From positions 178,411 through 242,410 of the forward strand of contig CAZKVR010000001.1 of assembly GCA_964556395.1 (NCBI GenBank): a stretch of DNA of 64,000 nucleotides. The letters run 5' to 3'. Positions 3,286 through 37,012 of this stretch are shown one piece after another. The notes beneath the pieces are model-generated. The model saw only the letters and a program-made list of their open reading frames with translations, ran no database searches and was not told the DNA's origin. Position 1 is the stretch's first letter. Every line of letters begins with the position of its first letter. Source of the stretch: an uncultured Methanosarcinales archaeon (GTDB taxonomy: Archaea; Nanobdellota; Nanobdellia; Woesearchaeales; WJKR01). The translations under genes and the position numbers were made by a program.

Positions 3286-6231
3286 TCAGGTGAGTTTGTT
3301 GTAGTCCAGGATGGCTTGGGCTTTGAAGGGGTCCGGGTCTATCTCGAGTCCGTGGAGGTGGTCCAAAGGTTGTATGAGGGCTGGGGCTGTCATCGTGGAT
3401 AACTGGGGTGTGAGGGTGTAGCGGTTGTAGGTGTGGTTGTACTGGCCCGCGCCGTCTACCGGTACGACGGCGACGCTTACCGATCCTCGACCGACGGGTT
3501 CTTCTCCGCAGTTGAGGAGTGGTATGCGGAACTCGTAACCGCTGAAAGAGCTTGTCGTGAACGGTTGGCCGTCGCTTCTCGTGATGGTGTGGGTGAGCGC
3601 TTCTTGCGGTAGAGGCCCGCTCGCGGGCAGGCCTGACGTTGAACAGTATACGCGGTAGCTCTCGATGTCCGGGACATCGTCGCCGTCGTCGTAGCGCGTG
3701 GCGGCTTCCCATGAGATGAAGTATGCTGATATCTTGGGGAGGTATGTGGATGACAGGCTTTCCACGGGCGGCGGGATTTGGTCACGGAGCGTGAGGGCGA
3801 ACCTCGTGGGGTTTTCTTCCAGCGTGCAGAATGAGTGCGAGGAAACGTATGGCTTCCAGCCAGTCTCTCCTTCCCGCCGGCCGTAGGCCAGTCCTTGCTT
3901 GAGCCTTGTGAAGACTAGTGGCTCGTCCTCGTGCAAGTCTTGGTTTTTCAAGCGTTCTTTTCCGTCGGCTGCCCGTATGGTGATGTCGACTTCTTCCGAG
4001 CCTTCTTTGAAACGGAGAGAGATGTTGGCACGGGCCGGTCGTTCCGGGTCTTTGAGGTAGCGGTCCATCTCCTCTCCAGGGAGCATGAGCATAGGTCCGG
4101 ATGGTTGTGGGGACCAGGGCCAGAGTCTTTGTAGGAAGTTGGCAGGGGTGTCGGTCTCCACCCATACGCCGGTGCTGTTGATGACTATCTCGTAGTTCGT
4201 CGTCGGTGCTTCTGCTGGCGCTTCGAGTTCGCAAGTGGTGTCTGGTTGGGCTTGTAGGCAACCGGACAGTTGTCCGAGGATTGTTTGGGCGTGCGTTGGT
4301 TGGAAGCAGTCTTCCGTGAGGTTGTAGCCGTCCTTGGTGGTACGATTGTGTTCTGCGAGCGCTTGTCCGAGGCATGCTTTGGTGTCGTCAGTGCATGCCT
4401 GCGCTTCCTTGGCGAACCTCTCGAATGATTGGAATCGTTCGAGGTCTATAGGTATGGGTTTTTCGAAGTGCGCTTGGAAGGAGTATGTTCCCGGATACGT
4501 GCCTTCCCCTTCCTTGTTGAACTGTGCGGCATTCCCGCCGAAGAACTCGTAGAGTGTCATGACGTCTTCGACGAAGTCCGGGTCGGCCCATGGTTCGCAC
4601 TTGCCGGTGTTGTAGCGCCTGGCGGCTATCTCGTAGGGTTGTGTGTACGTCTCCTTGACGCAGATGTCCTGGTCGAAATTCTGCCCACAGCACTCCCATG
4701 AGATGGGTTTCTTCGTGGCGAGTTCCGCGACGAGGCTCGCTCCGCAACAGATGTTCTTGTCGGGGTCGAAGTAGTCTTCCTTGTCAAGGTCCTTTGAGAA
4801 GTCGCATTCCGGGACGCACCTTGATTCGTGGTGGTAGCTGGGTATTATCTGCATGAGTCCTAGGGCTCCCGTAGGGCTCTCAGCGTCCGCTATACCTCTC
4901 GACTCGTGGGCTATGAAAGCTTTGAGGATTGCTGGTTCGAGTCCTTGACGGGCCGCATGCTCTTTGATGGAGTCATCGTAATCTTCGAGTCGTTCCTCCA
5001 CTTTGGGCGTGACGCTGGATGTGTAGTCCTTGGCGGGCGCGTTAGTCCTCCCAGGGCTAGCTTCTTGCGCTTCAGTATATGGTATCTTTTCCGGTTGGTT
5101 CTTGATGGCTGTGTTGATGCGGCTACGGTAGTCTTTGAGTTTTCGTTCGAAAGCTGGTCCGGGGTCGGTCTTGTCGTCCGTGATGTCTGAGTGCATGACG
5201 AGCGCTTCTTCGCTGAGGACTTCTTGGTCGTCGAGCAGGTTTTCGTGACGTCTTGTGAGGTCTGCGACGAGCTTGACGAAGCTCTCTATCTGCTCTTCAG
5301 TATATGGTTCCCAGCACTGTTCGTCGTCGACGTTGGCGCATGAGGGGTTCCTCCCTTCGCATTCTTTCTTGTAGCCGCAGTTGACGAAGCTGATGCCGAT
5401 GCTGGGTTGGTTCGAACCCGGACGCTTGCAGTTCTCATCGTCCCGCTTGCAACCGGCGTGGTAGGCCGCTTTGTCTTCTGGTACGTGTTGTTGGACCGTG
5501 CCATCATGGTCTATGATGTAGTGGTAGCTGAAGCCTGCGTCCTGCAGAGTCCTGACGGCTCCTTCTAACGTGCCTGAAGCGGTGTAGTGCACGACTACGA
5601 AATCGACGTCATTTCCTCCTCGCCCGCCGAGGTTGAGGGGTGCGCCTCTCTGGGCGGCGTAGTGGTCGGGGGTGAAGGCGTCTCCGGCCAGGCTCATCAT
5701 CTGGTCTCCTCCGCCGGTGAATCGTATGGTGGCTGGTGAGGAACCCCTGGCAGTGAGTTTGGTGGCCCCTGGTATCGTGGCGGTCTCTAGTGCGAAGGAG
5801 GGATAGTGGTAGGTGTCTTGGGCGTTGAGCTTGAGGAATAGGATAGCCCTGAAGGCTGTCTTGAGGTTGTCTTCGAAGTCCGGGATGCAGTTTTTTTCGG
5901 GCACGCTCCATAGGGGTGTGTCGAGGTAGGTGTCGCAGGGGTACGCTCCGCCTTCGTAGTCTTTCTGGAGTCCTCCTCGGGCTCGGAACCGTTCGGCGGC
6001 TTCGATGGATGATTGCCGTGCGGCTTCGTCGAGGTAGGTGAGCGCTTTCTGGGCTTCATCCTCTGCTTGTAGGATTGCGAATTGGGCGCTTCCGAGCGGT
6101 CGGTCGCTGACGACGAGCTTCTCCGCTTGCGTGGTGATGAGGATGCTCATGACGGTTATGAATATGGCGAGCGCTAGTAGGAAGTGGAAGTTGAGCCCTT
6201 TTTTTGTTCGTCTCATCTTGCTATTCCTCAC
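3286..6231 (-). CDS. Class III signal peptide protein with N-acetylmuramoyl-L-alanine amidase (Amidase_2) domain, lytic transglycosylase (SLT) domain and C-terminal FN3-like region
   Basis: N-terminus RRTKKG|LNFHFLLALAIF. Amidase motifs VVVHYTA, SYHYIIDHDG, AYHAG, SIGIS, MHSDI, KTDPG (~5150-5610). SLT motifs FIAHES, GALGLMQI, RRYNTG (~4550-4985). Start may be ATG 6216. Confidence 0.88.
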   Translation of the reverse strand: MRNSKMRRTKKGLNFHFLLALAIFITVMSILITTQAEKLVVSDRPLGSAQFAILQAEDEAQKALTYLDEAARQSSIEAAERFRARGGLQKDYEGGAYPCDTYLDTPLWSVPEKNCIPDFEDNLKTAFRAILFLKLNAQDTYHYPSFALETATIPGATKLTARGSSPATIRFTGGGDQMMSLAGDAFTPDHYAAQRGAPLNLGGRGGNDVDFVVVHYTASGTLEGAVRTLQDAGFSYHYIIDHDGTVQQHVPEDKAAYHAGCKRDDENCKRPGSNQPSIGISFVNCGYKKECEGRNPSCANVDDEQCWEPYTEEQIESFVKLVADLTRRHENLLDDQEVLSEEALVMHSDITDDKTDPGPAFERKLKDYRSRINTAIKNQPEKIPYTEAQEASPGRTNAPAKDYTSSVTPKVEERLEDYDDSIKEHAARQGLEPAILKAFIAHESRGIADAESPTGALGLMQIIPSYHHESRCVPECDFSKDLDKEDYFDPDKNICCGASLVAELATKKPISWECCGQNFDQDICVKETYTQPYEIAARRYNTGKCEPWADPDFVEDVMTLYEFFGGNAAQFNKEGEGTYPGTYSFQAHFEKPIPIDLERFQSFERFAKEAQACTDDTKACLGQALAEHNRTTKDGYNLTEDCFQPTHAQTILGQLSGCLQAQPDTTCELEAPAEAPTTNYEIVINSTGVWVETDTPANFLQRLWPWSPQPSGPMLMLPGEEMDRYLKDPERPARANISLRFKEGSEEVDITIRAADGKERLKNQDLHEDEPLVFTRLKQGLAYGRREGETGWKPYVSSHSFCTLEENPTRFALTLRDQIPPPVESLSSTYLPKISAYFISWEAATRYDDGDDVPDIESYRVYCSTSGLPASGPLPQEALTHTITRSDGQPFTTSSFSGYEFRIPLLNCGEEPVGRGSVSVAVVPVDGAGQYNHTYNRYTLTPQLSTMTAPALIQPLDHLHGLEIDPDPFKAQAILDYNKLT

Positions 6232-6758: not shown

Positions 6759-6765
6759 TCGCTGT

Positions 6766-7242
6766 TCACCAGGGGTTGACGTGTATGATGATGGTTGCTT
6801 GGCGTTCTTCTTCGTCTTCTCGGAGGGCGACTTCCTGTTTGAAGGTCGTCGTTGAGGATCTTTCGCCGGTCCAGGGTGTCGTGTGTAGTGAGCTCGGCCT
6901 GCTGGCCTCGGGGTCTATGATGGTGACTTTGACGGGCACTAGCTTGTACGGCGGTTCGGTCGAGAGTGTCGAGCACTTTTCGAGGTGTTCCTGGTCGAGC
7001 TTGGTGACGTCGAGGACTCTGTGGTCGATCCTGCCTGATGGTTGTTCGTAGGCGAAGCAGAGGTGGTTGTTGAGCAGTTGTTCGGCGTAGAGGGTCATCT
7101 GGAGGTCTCGGATCCGGTCCTTGTCTACGCTCGCTGTGTTGAGGGTGAAGAGCACGAGGAATATCCCTATGACTAGTATGAAGATGGTTTTGAAGACTGA
7201 GAGGAACTTCCTTGCAGTGAGGTATTGCCCTTTGCGGTCCAT
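6766..7242 (-). CDS. Pilin-like protein (class III signal peptide)
   Basis: MDRKG|QYLT then hydrophobic helix; Cys pair in head domain. Confidence 0.75.
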   Translation of the reverse strand: MDRKGQYLTARKFLSVFKTIFILVIGIFLVLFTLNTASVDKDRIRDLQMTLYAEQLLNNHLCFAYEQPSGRIDHRVLDVTKLDQEHLEKCSTLSTEPPYKLVPVKVTIIDPEASRPSSLHTTPWTGERSSTTTFKQEVALREDEEERQATIIIHVNPW

Positions 7243-8117
7243 CAGGATTCCACCTCTTCTTCACCGAGGTGCGCCCATGCTTCCGCGATTGAACTGAGGA
7301 ACCGGTTTTGATCTAAGGCGTCTGCTTGGTCTTTGGTGAACGCTAGTTCTATCCTTACTTCGTAGCTTTCGGTCTCTGCTCCTTTTTCTTCTTTGAGCGC
7401 GAGGCTGGTTCCTTGTAGTTCTTTTTTGAGCGTGCAGTAGAGGTGCTGGTAGGCTTGTTCTCGAGCCCCTTCGGCTTCCGGCCTTTTGAAGGTGAGTCTT
7501 CCGTCGTCGTCTGGCTCGCGCGATGTCAGCTTGAGGGCGAGGAATGACCCTTGGTTTCCGGCGAGTCCTTCGTCCTCGAGGTGTTTTGCGTTGAGGACGT
7601 CCGCCATGGCTTTGAGTTCGCTCTTCGTAAAGGCTGCTCCGGTGGTGGCGGTTCCTGCTTGCGCCCGGATGGTGTGCTCTCCTTCCGTACTCGGCATCGG
7701 GGGGCATTCGGTGTCCATAGCGGTTATGGTGTCTTCCTTCCCGAAGGATATGGTTCTTGAGTGCTTGGTGAGGTGTACGACGTCGCTTGCTTCTCCTTCC
7801 TTGTACGTCATGTCTTCGAGGGGCCTGTATGGTTGTGTCTGGGTGACTCCGCTACGGGTGTTCCTCACGGTCACCGCGTCCCGTTCCAGGCTTGCTTCGA
7901 AGTCTTCTTCGAGGGGGTATCGTATCGTGACGTCTCCTGGTACCGCTTGCGTGGCTTCTATGAGTAGTGCGAGGTCGTGGCTGTAGAAGTCTGCGAGGTA
8001 TCGGTGTTGTGTGTCGGCGTCTGCCGCCGCGGCTATGAAGATGGTGAGCGCTACGGCTACGATGGTGATGCTGATTATTATGAGGTTGAGCCTTTCGGAT
8101 CCTTTCTTGCTTGCCAT
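7242..8117 (-). CDS. Pilin-like protein (class III signal peptide)
   Basis: Start re-called at ATG 8117: MASKKG|SERLNLIIISITIVAV. Confidence 0.75.
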   Translation of the reverse strand: MASKKGSERLNLIIISITIVAVALTIFIAAAADADTQHRYLADFYSHDLALLIEATQAVPGDVTIRYPLEEDFEASLERDAVTVRNTRSGVTQTQPYRPLEDMTYKEGEASDVVHLTKHSRTISFGKEDTITAMDTECPPMPSTEGEHTIRAQAGTATTGAAFTKSELKAMADVLNAKHLEDEGLAGNQGSFLALKLTSREPDDDGRLTFKRPEAEGAREQAYQHLYCTLKKELQGTSLALKEEKGAETESYEVRIELAFTKDQADALDQNRFLSSIAEAWAHLGEEEVES

Positions 8118-8128
8118 GAGTATCCTCG

Positions 8129-9223
8129 CTAGTCTTCCGGCGGGTAGTCCATGCCTGCTTCTTCGCAAAAGCTGATGCAGGTTTCTCGTATGAGATCCTC
8201 TTCGTCTCCCGTGCACTCGTTGCACTTGTATTCTGCGAGTCCGTCTGGCGCTATGAATTCTCCGTCCGGGCCTTTGACGAGGCTTGGCTGGTAGGCCACT
8301 TCGTAGGCTGCTATGCGGTCGAGGCATTCTCTCGTGAGGCAGACCGCAATCCGTCCTTGCTCGAGCTTGGCGATGGTGGTGGGGAATGATTCTGGTAGGA
8401 AGTCGTAATGGCCGTAGGTGAACGGCCTGTCTTTCTTCTCGCGGGCGCGGTAGATGAGGAATCCGTTCTCGTGGATGAGGAAGGGTAGTTCTTTCTTTTT
8501 TGTTGACTCGAGTATGTTGAAAAGGGGATTGTCAGCTTCCTCCGGTCGTTGTTTGAAGTCGAAGGCTGTGAGCGGCGTGGCTATCGTGGCTCCAGATACC
8601 TGTTCGCATTGGACTCGCTCGCACTCGAGCGTGGCTTGCTCGTCGAGTCCGCGGAGGTATGCTTCTTGCCACAAATCGTTGGTATACAGTGGTTGTAGTG
8701 GTTCTCCTATGTCGACGTCGAGTCCTTCCTTGTAGTCTTCCGCGACGGTGGTGTTGATGCTGGCTCCTTCGCAGAGGCAGAGGCAGGTCTCCTCTTCGGC
8801 GCATTCACCCGGTCTTTTGAAGTGGAGGGCGTCTTGATAACCTCCACTCGTCTCCTTGCCGGGCGTGGTGAACGTGGATTTATCCCAGGCTTTGTTGAGT
8901 ATGAGGTGTAGGTCTCCGTCCCCTAACCGTCCGTTGCGCTCTTCCTCCTCCATGCGTGGGTTGAGCCCTATGAGGGCGTTTCCTGGATCAAGGTCGACCT
9001 GGGGTGTTTGTATGGCTCCTTTGGGTTCGTCGGCTATGGCTGCGACCTGCTGGTGGAATGTTCGGAAATCCTCCTCGTTCCCGCGGTTCCTGGAGAGTTC
9101 GCTCCCTATCAGGCTGAAGGGTGCTATGAGGATGACTGCTCCTATGATTATCCCTATCAGGGTTTGCAGCATGAGGCCTCTCTTGTCGAGTCTCACCCGT
9201 CCTCCATAAGCCTTCCTGCTCAT
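8129..9223 (-). CDS. Pilin-like protein (class III signal peptide) with Cys-rich head
   Basis: LDKRG|LMLQTLIGIIIGAVIL; C..CLCLC motif. Start ATG 9223 (ATGA overlap) or GTG 9196 with GGAGG upstream. Confidence 0.75.
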   Translation of the reverse strand: MSRKAYGGRVRLDKRGLMLQTLIGIIIGAVILIAPFSLIGSELSRNRGNEEDFRTFHQQVAAIADEPKGAIQTPQVDLDPGNALIGLNPRMEEEERNGRLGDGDLHLILNKAWDKSTFTTPGKETSGGYQDALHFKRPGECAEEETCLCLCEGASINTTVAEDYKEGLDVDIGEPLQPLYTNDLWQEAYLRGLDEQATLECERVQCEQVSGATIATPLTAFDFKQRPEEADNPLFNILESTKKKELPFLIHENGFLIYRAREKKDRPFTYGHYDFLPESFPTTIAKLEQGRIAVCLTRECLDRIAAYEVAYQPSLVKGPDGEFIAPDGLAEYKCNECTGDEEDLIRETCISFCEEAGMDYPPED

Positions 9224-9645
9224 GAGTTCTCCCTTGCTCTTTTCTTCTCGTAGCTTTCTTTCAGCGCCTTGGCGCAGCCCTCCTCTTCCAGGATGCAGAC
9301 TTGCTTGCCGGTCGAGGATTCTTTCTTCAGGGTGATTTCGTAGTCGAGGTCTCCGGTATCGAAGTGGTCGCAACTTCCGTCACGCGGGTCTCCGAAGTAG
9401 TAGTAGTCTCTGCCGTCCTCGGCCGTTATCACTTCTTGCCCTGAGACGCAAGGGCTGTCGTCATTGAAGTCCTTGATGCCATCTCCATCGTAGTCGCTGC
9501 TCACCGATTCGATGTAGCCGCTCAGGACGTTGTCCACGCTTCCTCCCGTCTTCTTCACTAATACGAGCATGACGATAGCGAAGACTGCGAGTATGATGAG
9601 TCCTATCATGAGGTTCGAGACTTTGTCTCCTTTCTTTCCGCGCAT
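9220..9645 (-). CDS. Pilin-like protein with DxDGDG Ca-binding-like loop
   Basis: MRGKKG|DKVSNLMIGLIILAVF; DYDGDGIKDFNDDSPC resembles a thrombospondin type 3-like acidic repeat. Confidence 0.75.
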   Translation of the reverse strand: MRGKKGDKVSNLMIGLIILAVFAIVMLVLVKKTGGSVDNVLSGYIESVSSDYDGDGIKDFNDDSPCVSGQEVITAEDGRDYYYFGDPRDGSCDHFDTGDLDYEITLKKESSTGKQVCILEEEGCAKALKESYEKKRARENS

Positions 9646-9693: not shown

Positions 9694-10608
9694 TCACCAC
9701 GATATTTGGCACTCCTCAGCATGAGGGTCCCATACGAGGGCTTGTTCGTTCGAGGGCACTTGTTCATATATCGAGTCGTCAGCCCCTTCTTGGAAACAGT
9801 CGTCGTCGAGGATTTGACGATTCTTCCGTACTTTGCAGTTCCCCCAACCGTCCACAGTGGGTATGAGGCATATCGAGTCTCCGCTCTTGTAGATGACGTA
9901 CCGCCCTGGTTTTCTCTGATTGTTAGCAGGGTCAACGCCTTTTTCCGTCTCCCATTCCTCCTCTTCATCTGCGAAACGCAGCTCTTCGTACGTTATCTCG
10001 AGATCTCCGTCTCCGAGGCTGTGGCAGTCTCCATCCTCGAGGGAGAACCCATCGTCCTCGCGGGCTTTCTCATCGAGGTAGTTGTAGTAGAAGCGTGACG
10101 ACTCATCGCTATAGACGACGCCTACGCTCAAGTCTCCCTCTGCATCGACCTTCTTGGGATCTGTTATGGGGTTGTGGTCGCCCTCATCTTCTCTGTCGAA
10201 CAGGAGCTGGAGCGACAGGCCATCATCGACCGGTTGGACCAGTATCTTGTGTTTTTTCAGGGACTTGTAGGGCAGCCCTCGAGGGAGGTAGTAGAGGCAT
10301 TGGTCGGCGTCGTCTCCCGCGAGGGCGACGAACGCTTGGTGGACTTCGTTGAAGACCTCTACGGCATTGTCTTGTTCTGGCCTAGCGTCGTATTTTGGAT
10401 CCTGATAGCCATCGTTCCCCAAGTACTCGTTCGGGTCGGGGAACACTGCCTTGATGCGGTTGTAGAGGGCTGCGGGTCCTATGAAGAGTATGGAGGTCAG
10501 GAGGGCTAGGAAGGCGAGCGCTATGATGAACTTGATGAACGTGCTGACGACGAGTCCTCGTTTGTCCGACCGGTGAGCCATGGGTTGTCCTTTCCTTGTC
10601 TTTTTCAT
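9694..10608 (-). CDS. Pilin-like protein (class III signal peptide)
   Basis: SDKRG|LVVSTFIKFIIALAFLALL; acidic Cys-containing head. Confidence 0.75.
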   Translation of the reverse strand: MKKTRKGQPMAHRSDKRGLVVSTFIKFIIALAFLALLTSILFIGPAALYNRIKAVFPDPNEYLGNDGYQDPKYDARPEQDNAVEVFNEVHQAFVALAGDDADQCLYYLPRGLPYKSLKKHKILVQPVDDGLSLQLLFDREDEGDHNPITDPKKVDAEGDLSVGVVYSDESSRFYYNYLDEKAREDDGFSLEDGDCHSLGDGDLEITYEELRFADEEEEWETEKGVDPANNQRKPGRYVIYKSGDSICLIPTVDGWGNCKVRKNRQILDDDCFQEGADDSIYEQVPSNEQALVWDPHAEECQISW

Positions 10609-10745
10609 AAGCGTTTGAAAAAGTCTATGATAGTGGATGAGTTGTCCGTGAATATCGCCAGTACGGCCACGATGACCAGTATCGCCAGTATCATACCGAT
10701 TATCATGTATGCTTCCATGCCTTTCTTGCGCATCTGTCTAGTCAT
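10605..10745 (-). CDS. 46-aa minimal pilin-like peptide (absent from ORF track)
   Basis: Hand translation MTRQMRKKG|MEAYMIIGMILAILVIVAVLAIFTDNSSTIIDFFKRL*. Fills the intergenic gap; ATGA overlap with the downstream gene. Confidence 0.8.
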   Translation of the reverse strand: MTRQMRKKGMEAYMIIGMILAILVIVAVLAIFTDNSSTIIDFFKRL

Positions 10746-12118: not shown

Positions 12119-12255
12119 GGCGAGCCCCCTCCGAAGAGCCCTCCGCTTCTCATGAGCCTCATCACGGTCATTATCACGAGTGCGAGGAACGCTATGCCTG
12201 CTATCATGAGGACGAGGTAGCTGGTGGCCATCCCTCGTGTTGCTCTCGCTCTCAT
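12115..12255 (-). CDS. 46-aa minimal pilin-like peptide (absent from ORF track)
   Basis: Hand translation MRARATRG|MATSYLVLMIAGIAFLALVIMTVMRLMRSGGLFGGGSP*. ATGA overlap with the next gene; TATA box ~25 nt upstream. Confidence 0.75.
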   Translation of the reverse strand: MRARATRGMATSYLVLMIAGIAFLALVIMTVMRLMRSGGLFGGGSP

Positions 12256-29785: not shown

Positions 29786-29808
29786 GGTTCTTGCTTGGGA
29801 GACGCTTG

Positions 29809-30991: not shown

Positions 30992-30997
30992 GCTCTT

Positions 30998-33900
30998 TCA
31001 CTGAGAATCCCCGACCGGCACGAGGCAGTGGAGGTGACGTTCGTCATCGCAGCTATCAACGCTACTGAAGAGCCAACTGCCATCCACAGAGTAAGAGGAC
31101 GAGCCGTACACGCCGTAGACATCTCGCGACGAGGAGGTCCACTCGTCGCAGTGGTTTCCTGAACTATGGGTTGAGCCGTCGCTACTAGACCCGGTCCAGA
31201 ACTCGGCGGTGCTCATCAGATCACCGTACTCGTCGTAAAAGAACGATCTGCCGCCGCTGCCGACTGAAAAGCCTTGTTTGCGGAAAAGGTCTGTGACATA
31301 CGTGTCGCTACCGAAGGGGTCGTTCTTCGAGCAAGGCACGTCGACGTTGGAGCACACATGGACTTCGTCTTCGAAACGGGAGTCCGCGCCGAGCGTGCCG
31401 TCTGAGATGACTGCCTGCGCGGCTCGTGTGATGACATCGTCGCCCATCGACCCTTGCCGGGCGGCTGCGCGGCACTTCTCGTCAGCTCCCATGACGCCGC
31501 CGAGGTCTCCGGTATAGGGGTCGCTCGTGACGTAGAGCCGGTAGCTGTCGATGCCGCAGGACGCGTCGCTGAGTTCTCCGTCGATGCAGAGCTTCTCAAT
31601 TGCTTGCGCATTCGTACAGTATTCCTTACCCTCATATTCATCGGCGATGGCGACTATCTCGTAAGGCTGGTCGTACGTGTCGTCGCACTCCTCGTCAAGG
31701 TCTATCCGGCCGTTGTGAAGCCAGCACGAGGAGTCCGAGGCGAAGTTGCCGGGATCGCCCTCGCCGTCGAGGCGTATGTTACTGGTGAGGTATCGCCAGT
31801 CAACCCCTGCGGCGTCGTCATCCTTGAAACTGAGGAAGACCGTCTGGTTGGGGCCGGAACTGCAACGCTTCGCGTCGCTCGGGGTGAATCCTGAAGCCCT
31901 GTACCCTTCGACGAGCGGTTCCACGCTCCCGCTGAGGTTTTCGTAGTCGACGCGTACGAACCAATCCTCTTTGTTCTCGTCGTGTTCCATGATGCCGCGT
32001 ACCCGTTTGGAACCGTTCTCGGACAGGTAGAGGTAGGTGTAATCGCCTTGGATTGATTGGAAGGGGAGGGTGGTGGGTTCGGCGTCGCTTGTGCCTTCGC
32101 CTTCTCCGAGGAACATGTCGATGAAGAATCCTTTGACCGACTCCCAGAGCGAGGCCAGGAATCCTTGTGTGGGTGGCTCGTCGATGCTGAGGAGTAGTAG
32201 TTCGAGCGGCTTGTTGTAGGAGGCGTGGAGCTCGTCTGAACCCATGCACTCCACGAAGAAGTCGTCGGAGGATCCTTGTAGTATGATGTCGTCCGGCATG
32301 GTGTTGCCTTCGCCGTCTAGCGCGCAGTCAGGAGGGTCGTCGCTGCCGTTGAGCGGGTAGTACGTCCGGTAGAGCGATGCTATGAACTCGTTGACGTCGG
32401 TCGCCTGGTGGAGGGGTAGTGCGAGGTAGACTCGCTGGCCGTCGTCAGTCTCGTTGCGCAGCACGCAGGCGTGGGTGGCGTTGTCGCCCGGTGTTCCTAG
32501 CGGCGTCCCGAGAGCCGCGAGGCTCGTGCTGTTGAGAGGTTGCGCTTCGAGGTCGTAGTAGTCGCAGTGGAGGGTGTAGTCGTCGCCGGCCATGCCGTAC
32601 AGCTTTGAGGCGAGGGCTTTGACGCGGGCGACGTCGCCCAGCGGCTTCCACTGGTCTGAGGGGTCGCAGTACCAGTGTCCGAGGATGCTGAAGTGGTCTA
32701 CCTCTTCGACCACGAGGTCTTGGGCACTACCGCTGCCTCCTACCTGGCTGATGGTGTAGGTGCCGTCATCATTCTCATCGATACCGTACGCACTCATATC
32801 ATCTTCATAAGGGGCTTCGAAGGATCCTTCGCCGCAACTCCACATCTTCCCCTCGCCACCCGCCTTCTTGTAGAGGAGGTGTGACCAGTAGCCGGGGTTG
32901 TTGCCGTACGCCCGGCTGACCGGGGTGTCATCCTTGACGCGGACGCCCCCCCAGCAAGCCGCTTCGGTGTCGAGGAAGTACTCTCCTCGTGTGAAGTCTG
33001 TCTCGTCAGGATTGACGTCGGCCTCGTCCTCGTAGGTGCGGCCGCAGCACGAAGTCCCGGTCCAGCCCGCGCTGAGCTGGGCGTTGCACGCGAAGCGCTC
33101 GGCATGGGTTTCTTCAAGGTTTGATCCTTCTTCGACTATCAGGTCTTCCAGCCACTCGTTCGCCGGCCCGGCGCAGTACATGGGGTCTTCGCCGCCTGGT
33201 TTGAGGACGACGTTGTCGACGACGACCCTGGTCTCGTCGCCTTCGCGGAGCGGCGTGACGTTCTTGACGTAGAGGTATAGCTCTTCGGCGTCAGGCAGGT
33301 CTTCTTCGAATGTTATCTCGACGTGGTGCCAGTGGTTCGGGATGAGCCTGTCGAGGACGAGGTGGTCTTCGAGCTCGAAGGAAGAATCCGCATCATCACC
33401 ATTTCCTCGTAGGATGAGGTTCCTTGGCTTGTGAGGGCCTTGGTATCGGAGGTCGAAGGCGAGGACGTCGTCTTCTTTCCAGGTCCCTTTCATGAGATCG
33501 GGAACCGCTCCGAGACGGACATCGGATTCATGTTCCTCATCACTTATGGTGATACTCCTCATATAATCCGTGAGGTTCCCATACCCTCCGAAGGAAGCCT
33601 GGTCGAAGCTGAGCACGGTGTGCAGTTGGGTGCCGGTGCCGAAGACGCGCCCGTTGTCGGGGCCGAGGGCTCGGGACAGGGAGCTCCACGTGTCGATGTT
33701 GTAGCACTGGCTCTCGTGGCAGCACTCGGCGTACATCGGCCGGCCGTCGAGTCCTTCGTAGCACGTGATGGCGGGTGTTTCTCCCTCGGACTCGTCTTCC
33801 GAGGTGGCATAGCCCCAACGCCCGACGCAACAATCGCCGTCGGCGCTGTCTACGATATCCCCATGGCAGACGAAGTCTTCTGAACCTTCAGGTATGACGA

Positions 33901-36900
33901 CTGAGTCGCCGGCTCCTCCGAGCTCGGAACAAGTTTGATCACCAGGGCTTTCCTCGCAGTACCCTCCGAAGCAGCACTTACCGTCTCTAGCATCGACGAG
34001 GAATCCTAGGTTTGGGTCGAGAGAGACGCACACCTCATCGCATGGCTCGGAGGGCTGGTTGAAAGAGGCTCCGAACTCAGCGCACGATAAACCGGTCTGA
34101 CGCGGGTAGGAGTGGCCGAACCCTTCGTCCTTGAGGATGTCATCAGACGCTGGCGGATTACCATTGTCTTCATCCTCTGTTTCAAAGTCCCGCAGGGGCC
34201 TGCACTCGAAGCCGTCGCAACTGACACTCACGGAGGGTTCGAAGAATTCCTCGAAGTCATGGGTGGTTTCTGCGTTTGGGTGGTAGCAGCACCCCATGAA
34301 TTCTTCAGCCAGAGCCGACACATCCTCTTCAGTGAGCTCATTTTCGAATTTTTCGACATAATGTTCTAGTTCACCCTGCAACTCATCTTCATCAAGTTCT
34401 GCGAGCGGTTCACAAAAATTGTTCTCGTTCGTCAGGACGTAGTTGCTCCAACCCTCGATTTGAGAGAGCGAGAATGAAGGCAATGATTCGTCGACGTCAT
34501 CAGCCTTCCGCAACGGGCACAAAGAATCGAAAGCGATATCGGTATCGGTAGGAGGTAAGACTTCGTACTCATCAGACTCGATTGCGTTGCCCTCGTAGCC
34601 ATTATCAGCGTCGCAGGCGAACCATGATTCAGCGTTGGAGACGAAGTCCCGCTCCAAGCCGGCGTGGATCCTGAAAGGATGCCTTAGGCCTTCTGCAGAC
34701 CACCACTTCCAGGCACCGTCGTCGGCGTAGGTGATGCCGTTGTTGGCTCCTGACTTATCGCTGTAATCCTGGTTGCAGAAGTATTGCTGGTCTGATGAGA
34801 CGTAGGCATGGTCTGAACTGGTGGTCTCGACCGGCGCACTTTGCTTGAGGGTGCAGGCAGGATTCTCCTGACAGTCTTCTGAACCGATATCATCGCAGAT
34901 GTCAGGCCGTATCTTGCGGTTCTCGGATTCTCCTTGAAAGATTCCTTGGTCGTTGTCAGCAACACATGCAGACACGACGCGGCATAAACCACCGCAATCC
35001 TCAGTGCTGTAATAACTGCATATCCAATTAGATATTGGTTCGATACCCTTACACGTTTCAGATACAGAACAGCCTTCCACAGAACTGCACTCTTCCATAT
35101 CAAGATCGGCGCACTCCTCGACCGAGAGGTTTCGGATACAGTTCTCTTCCAGGATATTGATATAGGGATGTTCACATTGGTTGTAGTCATCCAGGGATGG
35201 TTCTGAACAGGTTAATGATACGGAACAGGATTCATGATTGATGGCTTCTTGGGGGTCGACGTCGTCACAGCTCGTTTGTTCATCGCATTCCCAGGAGCAA
35301 GGGTTAGAGTTGGTATGGGGGTTCCCTGAAACATCCTCGCAGATATATGGGTCATCAAAGCCATCACAAACAAAAGTTCCTTGCACCGTCTGACAACTAT
35401 AATCTGAGCAGAAGGAACCTTCAGCTGTGACCTCCGCTTCGCAACCCATAGCTTGACAAGCGGTGTCAAGCTCGTAAGAGTAAATGTCGCTGGAGTAATC
35501 GTCACAGGAGGCGTCCTCCATAGGCTTTCTGCAGACCGCGTAGCCTCCCCAGACAGAGCATTCGTCGAATGATTCCGGATCGTCACGAGTACTGCAAGAC
35601 GTCGAGTCTTGGCATTCCCAAGAACAAGCGTAATCACCGGAGTTATCTTCCACAGTCTTACAATCTTCTTCATTATTATAATCAGCACAACTACAGGTAT
35701 TAGGACCGCAATCGAATTCGCCGCCTTGACATTTATATTCCAGACAAGCATCCCCTTCTATATTTGGAGGAATATACTCGCAACCATTATCTTCGCAGGA
35801 GTCTTCATCCCCTAGCCAGTCATCAATGTCGCCGGAGTACTGGTTGCAGTCGTCACCACCCTCAGATCCATCGCTGTAGGGGTGTCCACATATGAATGCG
35901 TCGTCTCCGCAGCAGCCGTCAGAGCCATCATTCAAGCTATTGATGTCATGAGAGGTTATACTTTCTGAGCCTTCCAAGAAGAAAGGCGTGCTGTGAGATT
36001 GCCGGATATTATCCTCACAGTAACTTTCGGCATTGTTTTCTTTCCATCGTCCATCAGCACAGACTAAATCATTGTGTATGTGACTGTCATCCTCGTCGTC
36101 ACCGCAGCAATGATATCGTTCCGGGATATCGTCATAGTCGTCCGTGTGGGTGCCTATCCAGGAGTCGTCTCCGTACGCGGCTTTGCAGAATTCTCCGACT
36201 TCGTCGAAATCGCGGAATTGCTCGAGCTTTGAGGCCAGATCTCCTGTTCCTATAGCGTTGTGGGAGATGACAAATTCGTCCGAGGTGAACTCTTCCCCAT
36301 CATTCAAATCCTGCAAGGAGTGGTCATCAAACTGGATGTCCATGTTGACGTTTTCTCCTTTTTTCTTATCATTTTCCTCGTCGTCAAGATCCAAGCCGAC
36401 GGCTATATAGTAGACTCCAGGGTCAAGTGACATTTCCTTCGACTCATAGGTGTAACTACCGCCGCAGTTTCCAGGATCGTGGTTATAGAAGTATCTTGAT
36501 GAGTTGAGGTCGTCATTGTTTGGAGGAACACTCGAGTCTGAGAAGGTGAGGGGATGGATGTAGATGTGGGCTGTAGATTTTATATTGTGAGAATTGTGAC
36601 AATATGTGTCCAGACCTAGTTTGACGGTTTCGATTGGCTCGAATACGTAAAGATATCCTTGGTGGGCTGTACTGGCTGTCGTCCAAATTCTGGTACTGAG
36701 GCGTAATTCCTCACTCGCATCGAAGCACTCGTCTTGGCGGTCGCTGCTAGCATAGTGCTTGTTCCGGAACGCGTTCCAGAAATCCTCGACATTATCAACA
36801 CCAGCATCATTCTTATGGAAATAATTCTCTTGTACAGAACCATCGCCCTCGCCGGTATTTCCTTCAGTGACCACTTTGAAAGTGTAGGGTTGCTCAGAGC

Positions 36901-37012
36901 ATGAGACCAATGGATGGAGTTCCGCATTCCCTAACTCGGCAGCCATGACGAGCGATAGCGTAAGGAGTAGGACGAGTAGCAATCTTTGAGAGGTATGCTT
37001 TTCGCTCACCAC
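30998..37012 (-). CDS. Giant (~2000 aa) secreted Cys-rich acidic surface protein with C-terminal DUF1554 (endostatin/C-type lectin-like) domain
   Basis: Signal peptide LLLVLLLTLSLVMA; CCGDD motifs and many Cys repeats. C-terminus LYVTS..YTGDLGG..GADEKC...FWTGS...C..WTS...C....HLHC. Confidence 0.8.
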   Translation of the reverse strand: MVSEKHTSQRLLLVLLLTLSLVMAAELGNAELHPLVSCSEQPYTFKVVTEGNTGEGDGSVQENYFHKNDAGVDNVEDFWNAFRNKHYASSDRQDECFDASEELRLSTRIWTTASTAHQGYLYVFEPIETVKLGLDTYCHNSHNIKSTAHIYIHPLTFSDSSVPPNNDDLNSSRYFYNHDPGNCGGSYTYESKEMSLDPGVYYIAVGLDLDDEENDKKKGENVNMDIQFDDHSLQDLNDGEEFTSDEFVISHNAIGTGDLASKLEQFRDFDEVGEFCKAAYGDDSWIGTHTDDYDDIPERYHCCGDDEDDSHIHNDLVCADGRWKENNAESYCEDNIRQSHSTPFFLEGSESITSHDINSLNDGSDGCCGDDAFICGHPYSDGSEGGDDCNQYSGDIDDWLGDEDSCEDNGCEYIPPNIEGDACLEYKCQGGEFDCGPNTCSCADYNNEEDCKTVEDNSGDYACSWECQDSTSCSTRDDPESFDECSVWGGYAVCRKPMEDASCDDYSSDIYSYELDTACQAMGCEAEVTAEGSFCSDYSCQTVQGTFVCDGFDDPYICEDVSGNPHTNSNPCSWECDEQTSCDDVDPQEAINHESCSVSLTCSEPSLDDYNQCEHPYINILEENCIRNLSVEECADLDMEECSSVEGCSVSETCKGIEPISNWICSYYSTEDCGGLCRVVSACVADNDQGIFQGESENRKIRPDICDDIGSEDCQENPACTLKQSAPVETTSSDHAYVSSDQQYFCNQDYSDKSGANNGITYADDGAWKWWSAEGLRHPFRIHAGLERDFVSNAESWFACDADNGYEGNAIESDEYEVLPPTDTDIAFDSLCPLRKADDVDESLPSFSLSQIEGWSNYVLTNENNFCEPLAELDEDELQGELEHYVEKFENELTEEDVSALAEEFMGCCYHPNAETTHDFEEFFEPSVSVSCDGFECRPLRDFETEDEDNGNPPASDDILKDEGFGHSYPRQTGLSCAEFGASFNQPSEPCDEVCVSLDPNLGFLVDARDGKCCFGGYCEESPGDQTCSELGGAGDSVVIPEGSEDFVCHGDIVDSADGDCCVGRWGYATSEDESEGETPAITCYEGLDGRPMYAECCHESQCYNIDTWSSLSRALGPDNGRVFGTGTQLHTVLSFDQASFGGYGNLTDYMRSITISDEEHESDVRLGAVPDLMKGTWKEDDVLAFDLRYQGPHKPRNLILRGNGDDADSSFELEDHLVLDRLIPNHWHHVEITFEEDLPDAEELYLYVKNVTPLREGDETRVVVDNVVLKPGGEDPMYCAGPANEWLEDLIVEEGSNLEETHAERFACNAQLSAGWTGTSCCGRTYEDEADVNPDETDFTRGEYFLDTEAACWGGVRVKDDTPVSRAYGNNPGYWSHLLYKKAGGEGKMWSCGEGSFEAPYEDDMSAYGIDENDDGTYTISQVGGSGSAQDLVVEEVDHFSILGHWYCDPSDQWKPLGDVARVKALASKLYGMAGDDYTLHCDYYDLEAQPLNSTSLAALGTPLGTPGDNATHACVLRNETDDGQRVYLALPLHQATDVNEFIASLYRTYYPLNGSDDPPDCALDGEGNTMPDDIILQGSSDDFFVECMGSDELHASYNKPLELLLLSIDEPPTQGFLASLWESVKGFFIDMFLGEGEGTSDAEPTTLPFQSIQGDYTYLYLSENGSKRVRGIMEHDENKEDWFVRVDYENLSGSVEPLVEGYRASGFTPSDAKRCSSGPNQTVFLSFKDDDAAGVDWRYLTSNIRLDGEGDPGNFASDSSCWLHNGRIDLDEECDDTYDQPYEIVAIADEYEGKEYCTNAQAIEKLCIDGELSDASCGIDSYRLYVTSDPYTGDLGGVMGADEKCRAAARQGSMGDDVITRAAQAVISDGTLGADSRFEDEVHVCSNVDVPCSKNDPFGSDTYVTDLFRKQGFSVGSGGRSFFYDEYGDLMSTAEFWTGSSSDGSTHSSGNHCDEWTSSSRDVYGVYGSSSYSVDGSWLFSSVDSCDDERHLHCLVPVGDSQ

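What the first reader, a model, noticed from the sequence alone, without database searches (positions are those of the whole stretch)
3286..37012. ~34-kb locus of 18 type IV pilin-like genes and giant adhesins ending in the murein hydrolase: candidate contact-dependent attachment/attack apparatus
Seen: 17 consecutive minus-strand genes (3286-16039) plus 26528-29785 begin with a basic [KR]..[GA] motif followed by a hydrophobic helix, many coupled by ATGA/GTGA/TGATG overlaps. Three 1200-2250 aa Cys-rich surface proteins are co-oriented. Heads differ: enzyme, TPM, Ca-loop, 6-Cys modules, or none. No assembly ATPase, TadC or prepilin peptidase is in the window. Inference: a large multi-pilin tip or adhesion complex with modular cargo, analogous to Tad/Kil-type contact systems of predatory bacteria, assembled by motors encoded elsewhere.
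Basis: partly seen in the sequence, partly recalled or inferred. Interest (0 to 1): 0.85.

Follow-up and report, generated by a model that had tools for sequence, protein, structure and literature searches.

The report
Pilin-like operon ending in wall-cutting enzyme
A tiny archaeon of the Woesearchaeota group carries a long, conserved operon of pilus-type surface proteins and giant adhesins that ends in an enzyme cutting bacterial cell walls, which points to a contact organelle aimed at bacteria.

Summary
Each opens with a basic [KR][GA] site followed by a hydrophobic helix; gene 26528-29785 does too. Four Cys-rich proteins of 1085-2241 aa lie upstream.

The 1.06-Mb genome holds one A24 prepilin peptidase and several T2SSE ATPase/T2SSF platform pairs, none closer than about 100 kb.

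Synteny is strong:
- The whole array is conserved in two congeners.
- The quartet g15-g14-g13-g12 is in 20 of 20 loci from other families of the order.
- It is also in five genomes of other orders of the class.
- g14 relatives occur in 351 of 401 sampled genomes of the phylum.

The last gene (976 aa) fuses a conserved N-terminal module to Amidase_2 and SLT domains. These are the only such domains found in a genome where no murein-synthesis genes were found. Elsewhere the same N-module carries SLT, M23, amidase, CHAP, NlpC/P60, M15, M74, muramidase or glucosaminidase domains.

Best reading (about 0.5): a type-IV-pilus-like surface fibre with adhesins and swappable peptidoglycan hydrolases, directed at bacterial partners. 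Assembly and targeting are inferred, not shown. The enzymes are known in print; I found no paper linking them to a pilin operon.

The parts
3286..6216 (-). g01, 976 aa: class-III-like N-terminus, a conserved N-module of about 170 aa, Amidase_2 (residues 201-354), SLT (416-504) and a C-terminal region of about 400 aa. It is the last gene of the array.
   Evidence: Pfam gave Amidase_2 at E 5.6e-27 and SLT at 3.2e-12. These are the only SLT and Amidase_2 hits in the genome. Nine full-length relatives, two of them named Woesearchaeota, all have a basic-G/A site plus a hydrophobic N-terminus. The H-E-S / G-L-M-Q and H-x-T / H-S-D...D-P-G-P motifs are kept. The N-module model has pLDDT 79.
6228..6758 (-). 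g02, 176 aa, class-III-like N-terminus, no Cys.
   Evidence: No BLAST hit in the two congeners. No Pfam hit.
6766..7242 (-). g03, 158 aa, pilin-like. It lies upstream of the hydrolase, separated from it by g02 in the window.
   Evidence: N-terminus. Orthologs in G192 and G106. Weak HMM hits in 10 of 20 loci of other families, just upstream of the g01-like gene.
7242..8117 (-). g04, 291 aa, pilin-like.
   Evidence: Start and N-terminus. Orthologs in congeners. HMM hits in 6 of 20 loci.
8129..9223 (-). g05, 364 aa, pilin-like, 12 Cys.
9220..9645 (-). g06, 141 aa, pilin-like, with an acidic D-x-D-x-D-G loop.
   Evidence: The G192 ortholog keeps the loop. No G106 hit for g06 was listed.
9694..10608 (-). 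g07, 304 aa, pilin-like.
10605..10745 (-). Mini-ORF of 46 aa with a basic-G site and a hydrophobic helix. Coding status uncertain.
   Evidence: No equivalent was found in the congeners with the crude rule.
10751..12118 (-). g08, 455 aa, pilin-like N-terminus (T-G site here, K-G and Q-G in the congeners) plus a TPM domain.
   Evidence: Pfam TPM_phosphatase at E 2e-12. Orthologs. g08-like hits in 17 of 20 loci.
12115..12255 (-). Mini-ORF of 46 aa with a basic-G site and a hydrophobic helix. Coding status uncertain.
   Evidence: G192 has a 37-aa ORF of the same kind at the same position.
12409..12906 (-). g09, 165 aa, pilin-like N-terminus plus three tandem six-Cys modules (18 Cys).
   Evidence: Its HMM cross-hits g10/g11-type genes in relatives.
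12911..13174 (-). g10, 87 aa, small six-Cys pilin-like protein, paralog of g11.
   Evidence: BLAST of g10 against g11 gave 47% identity, E 3e-10. Alignment A5.
13174..13458 (-). g11, 94 aa, small six-Cys pilin-like protein and candidate major subunit.
   Evidence: The family is in 20 of 20 loci, mostly 2-5 tandem copies (one copy in two loci). It has six invariant Cys and a near-constant N-terminal helix. The first 35 residues are 53% identical on average against 28% for the rest.
13524..14027 (-). g12, 167 aa, member of the conserved quartet.
   Evidence: 20 of 20 loci of the order and 5 of 5 genomes of other orders. It has a K-A / Q-x-E N-terminus.
14024..14533 (-). g13, 169 aa, member of the conserved quartet.
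   Evidence: 20 of 20 and 5 of 5. Alignment A6.
14515..15507 (-). g14, 330 aa, the largest member of the conserved quartet.
   Evidence: Relatives in 333 of 401 genomes of the order and 351 of 401 of the phylum sample. The AlphaFold2 model has pLDDT 87.2: helix 7-60, then beta strands, then a C-terminal helical bundle. No Pfam family.
15515..16039 (-). g15, 174 aa, first member of the conserved quartet. Its start overlaps the stop of g16 by one base.
   Evidence: 20 of 20 and 4 of 5. Junction.
16039..22764 (-). g16, 2241 aa, 74 Cys. It has a Sec-type signal, a large outer part, one hydrophobic segment at 1973-1994 and a tail of about 247 aa.
   Evidence: Orthologs in congeners. g16 hits directly upstream of g15 in 10 of 20 loci; in several others the stretch was cut. 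Only a weak Ig-like Pfam hit.
22788..26462 (-). g17, 1224 aa, 72 Cys, Sec-type signal, no anchor.
   Evidence: g17 hits in 4 of 20 loci.
26528..29785 (-). g18, 1085 aa, 50 Cys, class-III-like N-terminus (K-G / Q).
   Evidence: Orthologs with the same N-terminus in both congeners. A 256-aa relative lies upstream of the quartet in L181.
30998..37012 (-). g20, 2004 aa, 96 Cys, Sec-type signal. It is separated from the rest by the Memo gene (29971-30837). Whether it belongs to the unit is uncertain.
   Evidence: weak DUF1554 hit, below the cut-off.

Best explanation
The locus encodes the structural parts of a surface fibre or short pseudopilus of the type IV pilus kind. The organism is a Woesearchaeales (Nanobdellota, DPANN) archaeon.

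**Shown**
- The genes form a tightly packed, co-oriented array of prepilin-like proteins.
- The array is conserved in order across distant relatives.
- The genome holds a prepilin peptidase and pilus-type motors elsewhere.
- The last gene is a peptidoglycan hydrolase whose catalytic domain is swapped among relatives behind a constant N-terminal module.

**Inferred**
1. The single A24 peptidase cuts the precursors after [KR][GA].
2. One of the distant ATPase/platform pairs assembles them.
3. g12-g15 form a conserved base or tip complex that carries the giant Cys-rich adhesins g16 and g17. This would resemble the minor pilins plus PilY1 of bacterial pili.
4. The small six-Cys proteins g10 and g11 (and g09) build the shaft.
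5. g01 is held on or beside the fibre by its pilin-like N-module and cuts the murein of a bacterial partner at the contact site, for attachment, feeding or killing.

The archaeon has no recognisable murein synthesis, so it needs no immunity.
For: **Prepilin-like N-termini**
- 15 solid genes plus g18 have them, and they are kept in orthologs that share only 20-50% identity.
- In g10-g15 the first 35 residues are 40-53% identical against 25-28% for the rest. This is the pattern expected of pilin assembly helices rather than plain anchors.
- Of 16 genome-wide scan hits with Q after the site, 13 lie in this locus or within about 9 kb of an ATPase/platform pair on C2 or C9.

**Machinery**
- One Peptidase_A24.
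- T2SSE hits over the cut-off at five places.
- T2SSF hits at four loci.

**Fold**
- The g14 model has pLDDT 87.2, with helix 7-60 followed by beta strands.

**Conservation**
- The full array is in two congeners, at 23-58% identity against 67-69% for Memo.
- The quartet and the small six-Cys genes are in 20 of 20 loci of other families, and a g01-type gene is in 18 of 20.
- g14 relatives are in 333 of 401 genomes of the order and 351 of 401 of the phylum sample.
- The quartet is present in order in 5 of 5 genomes of other orders, with g15 detected in 4 of them.

**Cargo**
- 12 of 18 terminal proteins, from 11 of 16 genomes, carry a murein hydrolase domain over Pfam's cut-off: SLT 7, M23 3, Amidase_2 2, muramidase 1.
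- The N-module profile finds 1962 cluster representatives, always at the N-terminus, in proteins of 120-1449 aa.
- Of 54 long representatives scanned, 19 had SLT and 11 had M23. CHAP, NlpC/P60, Amidase_3, M15, VanY, M74 and glucosaminidase also occurred.

**Foreign target**
- g01 holds the genome's only SLT and only Amidase_2 domains.
- No Mur ligase, transpeptidase or FtsW/RodA hit was found in a genome 93.75% complete.

**Print**
- Large lytic transglycosylase proteins of Woesearchaeota and Pacearchaeota have been read as tools against bacterial walls (passages of PMC8204110 and PMC9723730).
Against: - No ATPase, platform or peptidase lies in or near the locus. The nearest ATPase hit is about 103 kb away here and 118-193 kb away in 5 of 5 other genomes checked. 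The link to a motor is therefore only inferred.
- No small protein matched Pfam or NCBIfam pilin models.
- The g14 and g01 N-module models have no solved relative: Foldseek found no match at E <= 0.001, and the best wide-search Z was 8.2, on the helical bundle only.
- The N-terminus of g01 is no more conserved than the rest of its N-module, 25% against 24%, as for a plain anchor.
- The helix of the g01 N-module is kinked, 5-36 and 43-79.
- In other orders the quartet sits next to an S-layer-like gene, and no hydrolase or six-Cys gene was found within the 20 kb read. The ancient core may therefore serve the cell envelope.
- Four of 18 terminal proteins have no recognised domain, and one has a Metallophos domain.
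- There are no expression data.
Confidence: 0.5

Rival explanations
1. Surface display without a fibre. The class III signal serves only for export and anchoring, as in the Sulfolobus bindosome. The proteins sit in the membrane or under the S-layer as a fixed array. g01 is a tethered exoenzyme that harvests murein fragments from debris or neighbours as food, with no dedicated contact machine.
For: - No motor lies in the locus here or in 5 of 5 other genomes.
- The g01 N-terminus is no more conserved than the rest of its module.
- No pilin family model matched.
- The quartet lies next to an S-layer-like gene in other orders.
- Archaeal class III signals on non-pilus proteins are established (the bindosome is discussed in passages of PMC4858521).
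Against: - The N-terminal helices of g10-g15 are far more conserved than their heads.
- The small multi-copy six-Cys proteins look like shaft subunits.
- The fixed order of four pilin-like genes beside a giant secreted protein resembles minor-pilin sets.
- The same [KR][GA]-Q site marks the genes next to the ATPase loci.
Confidence: 0.25
2. Secretion pseudopilus. The quartet and the small pilins form a short piston like that of type II secretion. It pushes the giant Cys-rich proteins and the hydrolase through the S-layer into the medium, where they act freely.
For: - The core is four minor-pilin-like genes, one of them larger (g14), as in GspH-K sets (recalled).
- Giant secreted proteins are translationally coupled to the quartet.
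- S-layer-like genes neighbour the quartet in other orders.
Against: - g01 and g18 carry prepilin-like N-termini themselves, which secreted substrates of type II systems do not (recalled).
- g16 has a membrane segment near its C-terminus.
- No secretin-like part is expected or was sought in an archaeon.
Confidence: 0.12
3. Housekeeping envelope system. The quartet and giant proteins build or anchor the archaeon's own wall or S-layer, or act in division, and the hydrolase remodels an own murein-like polymer.
For: - The family is near-universal in the class.
- Here the locus lies directly downstream of the ribosomal/SecY/YidC-like block.
- An S-layer-like gene follows the quartet in other orders.
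Against: - No Mur ligase, transpeptidase or FtsW/RodA was found (the genome is 93.75% complete).
- Catalytic domains that cut different bonds of bacterial murein replace one another. That fits a foreign substrate better than a fixed own wall.
- Surface proteins diverge fast, 23-58% identity against 67-69% for Memo.
Confidence: 0.08
4. Chance pattern, mis-called genes or a mobile or viral island carrying a lysin.
Against: - All larger frames are open and are conserved with their N-terminal motif in relatives with 29-63% G+C.
- There were 15 scan hits where about 2 were expected.
- The order is fixed across the order, between housekeeping genes.
- Composition is like the rest of the window.
Confidence: 0.02

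Closest known systems
Archaeal type IV pilus loci with minor pilins, PilY-like adhesins and S-layer-like proteins (census of Makarova, Koonin and Albers 2016, PMC4858521; passages read)
   Same: - Several class-III-signal proteins in one operon.
- Large secreted or C-terminally anchored Cys-rich proteins.
- An S-layer-like neighbour (in other orders here).
- Pilin sets that can lie apart from the ATPase/TadC pair. The paper names Vulcanisaeta and Caldivirga loci without ATPase and TadC.
   Different: - That census has no DPANN or Woesearchaeota entry: these terms occur 0 times in its text. It states that cognate pilins of a nanoarchaeal ATPase could not be identified.
- The families here match no Pfam or NCBIfam model.
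- A murein hydrolase is not among the components named in the passages I read.
Minor-pilin priming/tip complex with PilY1 of bacterial type IVa pili, and GspH-I-J-K of type II secretion (recalled, not tested)
   Same: Four small pilin-like genes in fixed order, one of them larger with an extra helical domain (g14), next to a giant non-pilin surface protein (g16).
   Different: - No sequence or fold match to these proteins was found.
- The organism is an archaeon without an outer membrane.
- The complex prediction gave no verdict.
Modular pilins, for example PilB of Streptococcus sanguinis (PMC8179133; listing and abstract only)
   Same: A pilin-type N-terminus carries a grafted functional module, so that the fibre gains a function.
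   Different: - The module here is a murein hydrolase.
- It sits behind a dedicated N-module of about 170 aa with no solved relative.
- The module is exchanged among about ten catalytic families.
Large extracellular lytic transglycosylase proteins of Woesearchaeota and Pacearchaeota (PMC8204110, PMC9723730) and archaeal peptidoglycan hydrolases (PMC12352652); passages read
   Same: Probably the same proteins as g01 and its relatives. They are read in these papers as tools against bacterial walls and as a hint of bacterial hosts.
   Different: - 'Pili' and 'pilin' occur 0 times in the first two papers, and 'pilin' and 'class III' 0 times in the third.
- The third paper counts only Sec and Tat signals: 32% of archaeal hydrolases had a known signal.
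- I did not find the operon context, the shared N-module or the domain swapping in them.
Phage tail (virion-associated) murein hydrolases and polymorphic effectors with a constant N-terminal delivery domain (recalled)
   Same: A constant delivery part is joined to interchangeable wall-cutting domains (SLT, M23, amidase, CHAP, NlpC/P60). The enzyme acts locally on a foreign wall from outside.
   Different: - No phage genes are present.
- The constant part is prepilin-like.
- No immunity gene is expected, because the producer has no murein.
Tad-like Kil apparatus of Myxococcus and type IV pili of Saccharibacteria used on host or prey cells (Kil recalled; Saccharibacteria PMC9894109 and PMC11623550, listing and abstract only)
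   Same: A pilus-type machine used by a small or predatory cell for contact with another microbe.
   Different: - Those are bacterial systems with their ATPase, platform and (for Kil) secretin genes in the locus.
- No Tad-specific part was tested here.
- The resemblance is functional only.

Membership tests
Archaeal class III signal peptide (type IV prepilin-like) proteins | A short basic N-terminus, a [KR][GA] cleavage site, then a hydrophobic stretch of about 20 residues directly after the site. | tested here: met
   Seen in 15 solid genes plus g18 (g08 has T-G here and K-G / Q-G in the congeners). The site is kept in orthologs of 22 other genomes.
Archaeal class III signal peptide (type IV prepilin-like) proteins | A match to curated pilin or class-III models (Pfam, NCBIfam). 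| tested here: not met
   No such family at E <= 0.01 in Pfam or at E <= 1 in NCBIfam. Precomputed Pfam is '-' for 96 g14 relatives.
Archaeal class III signal peptide (type IV prepilin-like) proteins | A long N-terminal alpha-helix followed by a beta-sheet head. | tested here: met
   Met for g14: helix 7-60, then strands 66-232, pLDDT 87.2. The g01 N-module has helices 5-36 and 43-79 and only small hairpins, so it is less clear. The other genes were not modelled.
Archaeal class III signal peptide (type IV prepilin-like) proteins | Cleavage by a prepilin peptidase (PibD/FlaK/EppA type). | not testable with these tools
   One Peptidase_A24 gene is present at G000:C2:7516-7872. Cleavage itself needs an experiment.
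Complete type IV pilus system | A VirB11/T2SSE-family ATPase and a TadC/FlaJ (T2SSF) platform that assemble the pilins. | tested here: inconclusive
   Both are present in the genome at C2, C4, C9 and C1:7-10 kb. None is in the window or within about 100 kb, and none within 118-193 kb in 5 of 5 other genomes. Which pair serves the locus, if any, is unknown.
Complete type IV pilus system | Subunits polymerise into a fibre. | not testable with these tools
   Indirect only: the N-terminal 35 residues of g10-g15 are 40-53% identical against 25-28% for the rest.
Modular pilins | A pilin module followed by a separate functional domain in one protein. | tested here: inconclusive
   g01 has a prepilin-like N-terminus, an N-module and two enzyme domains. 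g08 has a TPM domain. The N-module has no detectable likeness to a solved pilin.
Tad/Kil-type contact-killing apparatus | A TadA/CpaF ATPase, TadB/C, a secretin and Flp-type pilins in one system, shown to be needed for killing. | not tested
   No ATPase or platform lies in the locus. The type of the distant ATPases was not resolved.
Polymorphic effector families | A constant N-terminal delivery domain with interchangeable C-terminal activity domains. | tested here: met
   The N-module profile gave 1962 representatives, always N-terminal. The cargo includes SLT, M23, Amidase_2/3, CHAP, NlpC/P60, M15, VanY, M74, muramidase and glucosaminidase.
Polymorphic effector families | A cognate immunity gene next to the effector. 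| not tested
   None is expected if the producer lacks murein. The gene after g01 is a replication factor A homolog.
Murein hydrolases (Amidase_2, SLT) | A domain match over the curated cut-off, with active-site motifs kept. | tested here: met
   Amidase_2 scored 95.1 bits (cut-off 26) and SLT 46.5 bits (cut-off 21.3). The H-E-S and G-L-M-Q motifs are kept in g01. H-E-S is kept in 7 of 9 relatives, with V-E-S in one and the Glu lost in one. G-L-M-Q is kept in 7 of 9. The amidase H and D-P-G-P motifs are kept in 8 of 9. The roles of these motifs are recalled.

The most novel reading that the evidence does not exclude
Woesearchaeales, a large and widespread group of DPANN archaea with no cultured member, live on bacteria rather than on archaea. 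They use a dedicated organelle derived from the type IV pilus.
- An ancient four-pilin core with giant Cys-rich adhesins docks the cell.
- A shaft of tiny six-Cys pilins reaches the partner.
- Pilin-anchored, freely exchangeable murein hydrolases open its wall.

This would be the first contact-dependent machine known by which an archaeon attacks a bacterium. It would need no immunity proteins, because the attacker has no murein.
Probability: 0.3. Interest if true: 0.9.

Novelty: new variant of a known kind. Interest (0 to 1): 0.74.

Why it matters
**An open question becomes testable.** The hosts and the attachment mechanism of Woesearchaeota and their relatives are unknown. These archaea make up a large share of archaeal diversity in sediments and groundwater. 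The locus gives concrete handles:
- a near-universal marker, the g14 family;
- a candidate shaft subunit;
- giant adhesins that evolve fast;
- a family of murein hydrolases whose catalytic domains could be matched to the wall chemistry of candidate bacterial partners.

**An export route for archaeal hydrolases.** Many archaeal peptidoglycan hydrolases were reported without a known signal peptide (PMC12352652, passage). In this lineage they carry a prepilin-type signal that Sec/Tat predictors do not count.

**Unnamed families get a context.** Several lineage-specific families of unknown function in Woesearchaeota and Pacearchaeota (PMC8204110, passage) may be parts of one pilin-like operon. I could not check that paper's supplementary tables, so this last point is open.

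Tried and rejected
- **Complex prediction.** I submitted the soluble parts of g15, g14, g12 and g13, with g13 as partner. The tool's verdict was 'no answer'. The score was 0.83 and the partner-replaced controls scored 0.00 and 0.00. The control with g14 replaced scored 0.71. This is not used for or against binding.
- **Fold searches.** The g14 model gave no match at E <= 0.001 in PDB with Foldseek. The wide VIA-align search had a best Z of 8.2, on the C-terminal helical bundle only, which is noise level for helical parts. The g01 N-module gave no match. These blanks do not show a new fold.
- **ESM Atlas for g14.** The neighbours are unnamed Nanobdellota clusters. The first named structural row is a bacterial prepilin-type protein at TM 0.26, too weak to use.
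- **Expression.** No RNA holder was listed, so no reads were laid.
- **NCBIfam on ten small proteins.** Only chance-level hits to membrane anchors.
- **Pfam on the giants.** Only sub-threshold Ig/fn3-like and DUF1554 hits, so 'adhesin' rests on size, signal, Cys content and position.
- **Literature.** No paper was found that ties DPANN pilin-like genes to murein hydrolases. One search was too loose to be useful. The library lacks many subscription papers, and supplements were closed. The supplementary tables of PMC4858521 and PMC8204110 may list some of these families.
- **Rejected ideas.**
  - Own-wall remodelling was set aside because searches found no murein synthesis genes.
  - A provirus or island was set aside because the order is fixed across the order, between housekeeping genes.
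  - A frame artefact was set aside because all frames are open and conserved.
- **Note corrected.** An early note said g16 was found in 12 of 20 loci. A recount gives 10 of 20.

Full report
**What is in the window.** The window is G000:C1:178411-242410. The genome is 1.055 Mb in 20 contigs, 93.75% complete, with about 57% G+C. Source names on relatives of its proteins read Candidatus Woesearchaeota, Nanoarchaeota, Nanoarchaeia or Nanobdellati. The protein atlas gives Nanobdellota.

Between a replication factor A gene (2027-3205) and the YidC-like/SecY/ribosomal block (from 37693) lie twenty co-oriented minus-strand genes. I number them g01 (3286-6216) to g20 (30998-37012). All are open, and most are packed with overlaps or spacings of 2-11 nt.

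**Checking the observation.** g01-g15 and g18 start with a few basic residues, a [KR][GA] site (T-G in g08) and a hydrophobic stretch of about 20 residues.
- Two further 46-aa ORFs of the same design lie in the two largest gaps. One congener has a 37-aa equivalent at the same position.
- A crude scan of the genome for this design gave 81 hits. Fifteen fall in the 26.5 kb from g01 to g18, where about two were expected.
- The giants are g16 (2241 aa, 74 Cys), g17 (1224 aa, 72 Cys), g18 (1085 aa, 50 Cys) and g20 (2004 aa, 96 Cys).
- g16 has a Sec-type signal, one hydrophobic segment at 1973-1994 and a tail of about 247 aa.
- A Memo gene (g19) separates g20 from the rest.
- Pfam recognises only Amidase_2 and SLT in g01 and a TPM domain in g08. 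The other small proteins match nothing in Pfam or NCBIfam.

**Machinery elsewhere.** The genome has one Peptidase_A24 gene, on C2. T2SSE ATPase hits over the cut-off lie at C4, C9, C2 and two places on C1. T2SSF platform hits lie at C2, C9, C4 and C1:6.8 kb.
- The pairs on C2, C4 and C9 are flanked by their own prepilin-like genes. The C1:3-17 kb region has archaellin-like N-termini.
- None lies in the window; the nearest ATPase hit is about 103 kb from g01.
- Of 16 scan hits with Q right after the site, seven are in this locus and six lie within about 9 kb of the C2 or C9 ATPase. The motif is therefore shared with genes that sit beside motors.

**Conservation.**
- *Congeners.* In two genomes of the same genus the array g20-Memo-g18-g17-g16-g15...g03-g01 is kept in order. 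Only g02 and g09 gave no hit in either congener, and g06 gave none in G106. Identity is 23-58%, against 67-69% for Memo. The N-terminal sites are kept.
- *g14 across taxa.* A three-sequence profile of g14 found relatives in 333 of 401 sampled genomes of the order, and in 241 of 281 high-quality ones. A 20-sequence profile found them in 351 of 401 high-quality genomes sampled from the phylum. That sample held genomes of the same order and of other orders of the same class. These tallies include 11 and 5 genomes that the tool flags as unpublished. No locus from those was analysed.
- *Other families of the order.* I read 20-kb stretches from 20 genomes of other families (29-63% G+C) and scanned them with profiles of each window gene.
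  - g15, g14, g13 and g12 were found adjacent and in order in 20 of 20. One locus has a 1.6-kb gap between g15 and g14.
  - Small g10/g11-type genes were in 20 of 20, mostly two to five copies (one copy in two loci).
  - g08-like genes were in 17 of 20 and a g01-type gene downstream in 18 of 20.
  - g03 was in 10 of 20 and g04 in 6 of 20.
  - A g16 match directly upstream of g15 was in 10 of 20. Several stretches ended too early to show one.
  - The orthologs keep the [KR][GA]-Q site.
- *Other orders of the class.* In five genomes from five families the quartet is again present in order, with g15 detected in four of them. It is preceded by a giant Cys-rich gene. It is followed not by small pilins and a hydrolase but by an S-layer-like gene and two small membrane proteins. 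The S-layer-like gene matched PF05124 at E 1e-8 in one genome and 4e-4, below the cut-off, in another.
- *This genome.* The S-layer-like homolog lies on C2 and the two small membrane genes on C3.
- *Motors in other genomes.* In 5 of 5 genomes checked, the nearest T2SSE hit on the same contig is 118-193 kb from the g14 homolog.

**Are they pilins?** The small g10/g11 family is about 85 aa. It has a near-constant N-terminal helix and six invariant Cys. g09 carries three such heads.

| Family | Identity, first 35 residues | Identity, rest |
|---|---|---|
| g10/g11 | 53% | 28% |
| g14 | 50% | 25% |
| g13 | 43% | 28% |
| g15 | 43% | 26% |
| g12 | 40% | 27% |
| g01 N-module | 25% | 24% |

The first five rows show the pattern of pilin assembly helices; the g01 N-module does not. 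The AlphaFold2 model of g14 (20-row alignment, pLDDT 87.2, pTM 0.81) has a helix from 7 to 60, beta strands to 232 and a C-terminal helical bundle. No solved structure matched convincingly.

**The hydrolase.**
- g01 relatives of full length number nine, and the two that carry a source name are called Woesearchaeota. All have the same kind of N-terminus, and most keep the SLT and amidase motifs.
- The first 130-170 residues of g01 match proteins of many lengths across the order.
- A profile of this N-module found 1962 cluster representatives at E <= 0.001, 1306 at <= 1e-10 and 202 at <= 1e-30 among 1.84 billion. The match was always at the N-terminus, in proteins of 120-1449 aa.
- The model of the module (pLDDT 79) has helices 5-36, 43-79 and 114-132 and two small hairpins. 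It has no solved relative.
- I scanned 18 terminal proteins from 16 of the 20 genomes. L089 and L093 were not scanned, and L098 and L099 had no g01-type gene in reach.
  - Twelve proteins, from 11 genomes, have a murein hydrolase domain over the cut-off. SLT occurs in 7, M23 in 3, Amidase_2 in 2 and muramidase in 1; one protein carries two of these.
  - One has a weak M23 hit, one has a Metallophos domain and four have none.
- I scanned 54 long representatives (440 aa or more). They were taken from the best 150, leaving out those that matched my own loci by length.
  - SLT occurred in 19 and M23 in 11.
  - Amidase_3, CHAP, NlpC/P60 and M15_4 occurred in 2 each.
  - VanY, M74, glucosaminidase and TPM occurred in 1 each.
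  - GDSL lipase occurred in 3 and fn3 in 7.
- In this genome g01 holds the only SLT and the only Amidase_2 domain, and there is no M23. No Mur ligase, transpeptidase or FtsW/RodA was found.
- Exchange of domains that cut different bonds of the same polymer, in an organism that appears to make none, argues that the substrate is foreign murein.

**Interpretation.**
- *Shown.* This is a conserved operon of prepilin-like proteins with giant secreted proteins. In Woesearchaeales it also has a polymorphic murein hydrolase with a dedicated prepilin-like N-module. A peptidase and pilus motors are encoded elsewhere.
- *Inferred.* The steps inferred are cleavage, assembly by one of those motors, a fibre with g10/g11 as shaft, g12-g15 as base or tip complex, g16/g17 as adhesins, and action of g01 on a bacterial partner.
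- *Confidence.* I put this at about 0.5.
- *Rivals.* The main rival (0.25) is a fixed surface array that uses the class III signal only for export, with a tethered scavenging enzyme. A secretion pseudopilus (0.12) and an own-envelope role (0.08) follow.
- *What the other orders imply.* The S-layer neighbour there shows that the ancient quartet is an envelope-associated core. The hydrolase and the six-Cys pilins look like an elaboration of Woesearchaeales, or are too diverged to be seen elsewhere.

**Comparison with what is known.**
- Archaeal type IV pilus loci with several minor pilins, PilY-like adhesins, Cys-rich components and S-layer-like proteins have been described. So have pilin sets apart from their ATPase (passages of PMC4858521). 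That census does not mention DPANN or Woesearchaeota.
- Large lytic transglycosylase proteins of Woesearchaeota and Pacearchaeota, and murein hydrolases of Nanoarchaeota, are in print as possible weapons or attachment tools against bacteria (passages of PMC8204110, PMC9723730 and PMC12352652). None of these texts contains the word pilin.
- Seven searches found no paper that links the two. Supplements were closed, so lists of families there could not be checked.
- I therefore rate this a new variant of a known kind. The kind is an archaeal type-IV-pilus-like locus. The variant is a class-wide four-pilin core that, in one order, carries a swappable murein hydrolase on a prepilin-like module.

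Noticed in passing
G000:C1:3000-17100 (outside the window): Archaellum-like region. It has several genes with archaellin-type N-termini, a T2SSE hit in an 1186-aa open frame and a T2SSF hit at C1:6789-7163.
   Followed up: no
G000:C2:109300-120600, C9:11400-20900, C4:19100-25800 (outside the window): Three separate pilus-type loci. Each has a T2SSE ATPase, T2SSF platform genes and its own prepilin-like genes with an R-[GA]-Q site. Two of those genes encode proteins of 1252 and 1278 aa. Any of these loci could be the motor for the window's locus.
   Followed up: partly
L181-L185 (five genomes of other orders of the class): The quartet is followed by an S-layer-like gene (PF05124) and two small membrane proteins. 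In this genome their homologs lie at C2:127424-129817 and C3:59381-60862.
   Followed up: partly
L181:8978-9915 and L184:3557-4151: Small gene pairs that look like toxin-antitoxin or nucleotidyltransferase-type cassettes sit inside or just before the quartet. In L181 they come with a second giant Cys-rich gene between g14 and g13. This is read by eye from N-termini only.
   Followed up: no
window 16039-22764 (g16): The giant protein has a single hydrophobic segment at residues 1973-1994, followed by a Lys/Glu-rich tail of about 247 aa. It may therefore span the membrane, with a sizeable inner domain.
   Followed up: no
L162 and many loci: Many records holding g14 relatives are titled 'uncultured Methanosarcinales archaeon', and one is titled 'Alphaproteobacteria bacterium'. 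These are probably generic or wrong labels of bins rather than real occurrences outside the Nanobdellota.
   Followed up: no
L092:18202-19680: One protein with the g01-type N-module carries a calcineurin-like phosphoesterase (Metallophos) domain instead of a murein hydrolase. Three of 54 representatives carry GDSL lipase domains. The cargo slot is therefore not strictly limited to wall enzymes.
   Followed up: no
window 37104-37988 and 37693-38463: Two overlapping open frames. The second is a YidC/EMC3-like insertase (PF01956, E 8e-25). The first is Arg/Ser-rich with no family and is probably not a gene.
   Followed up: no
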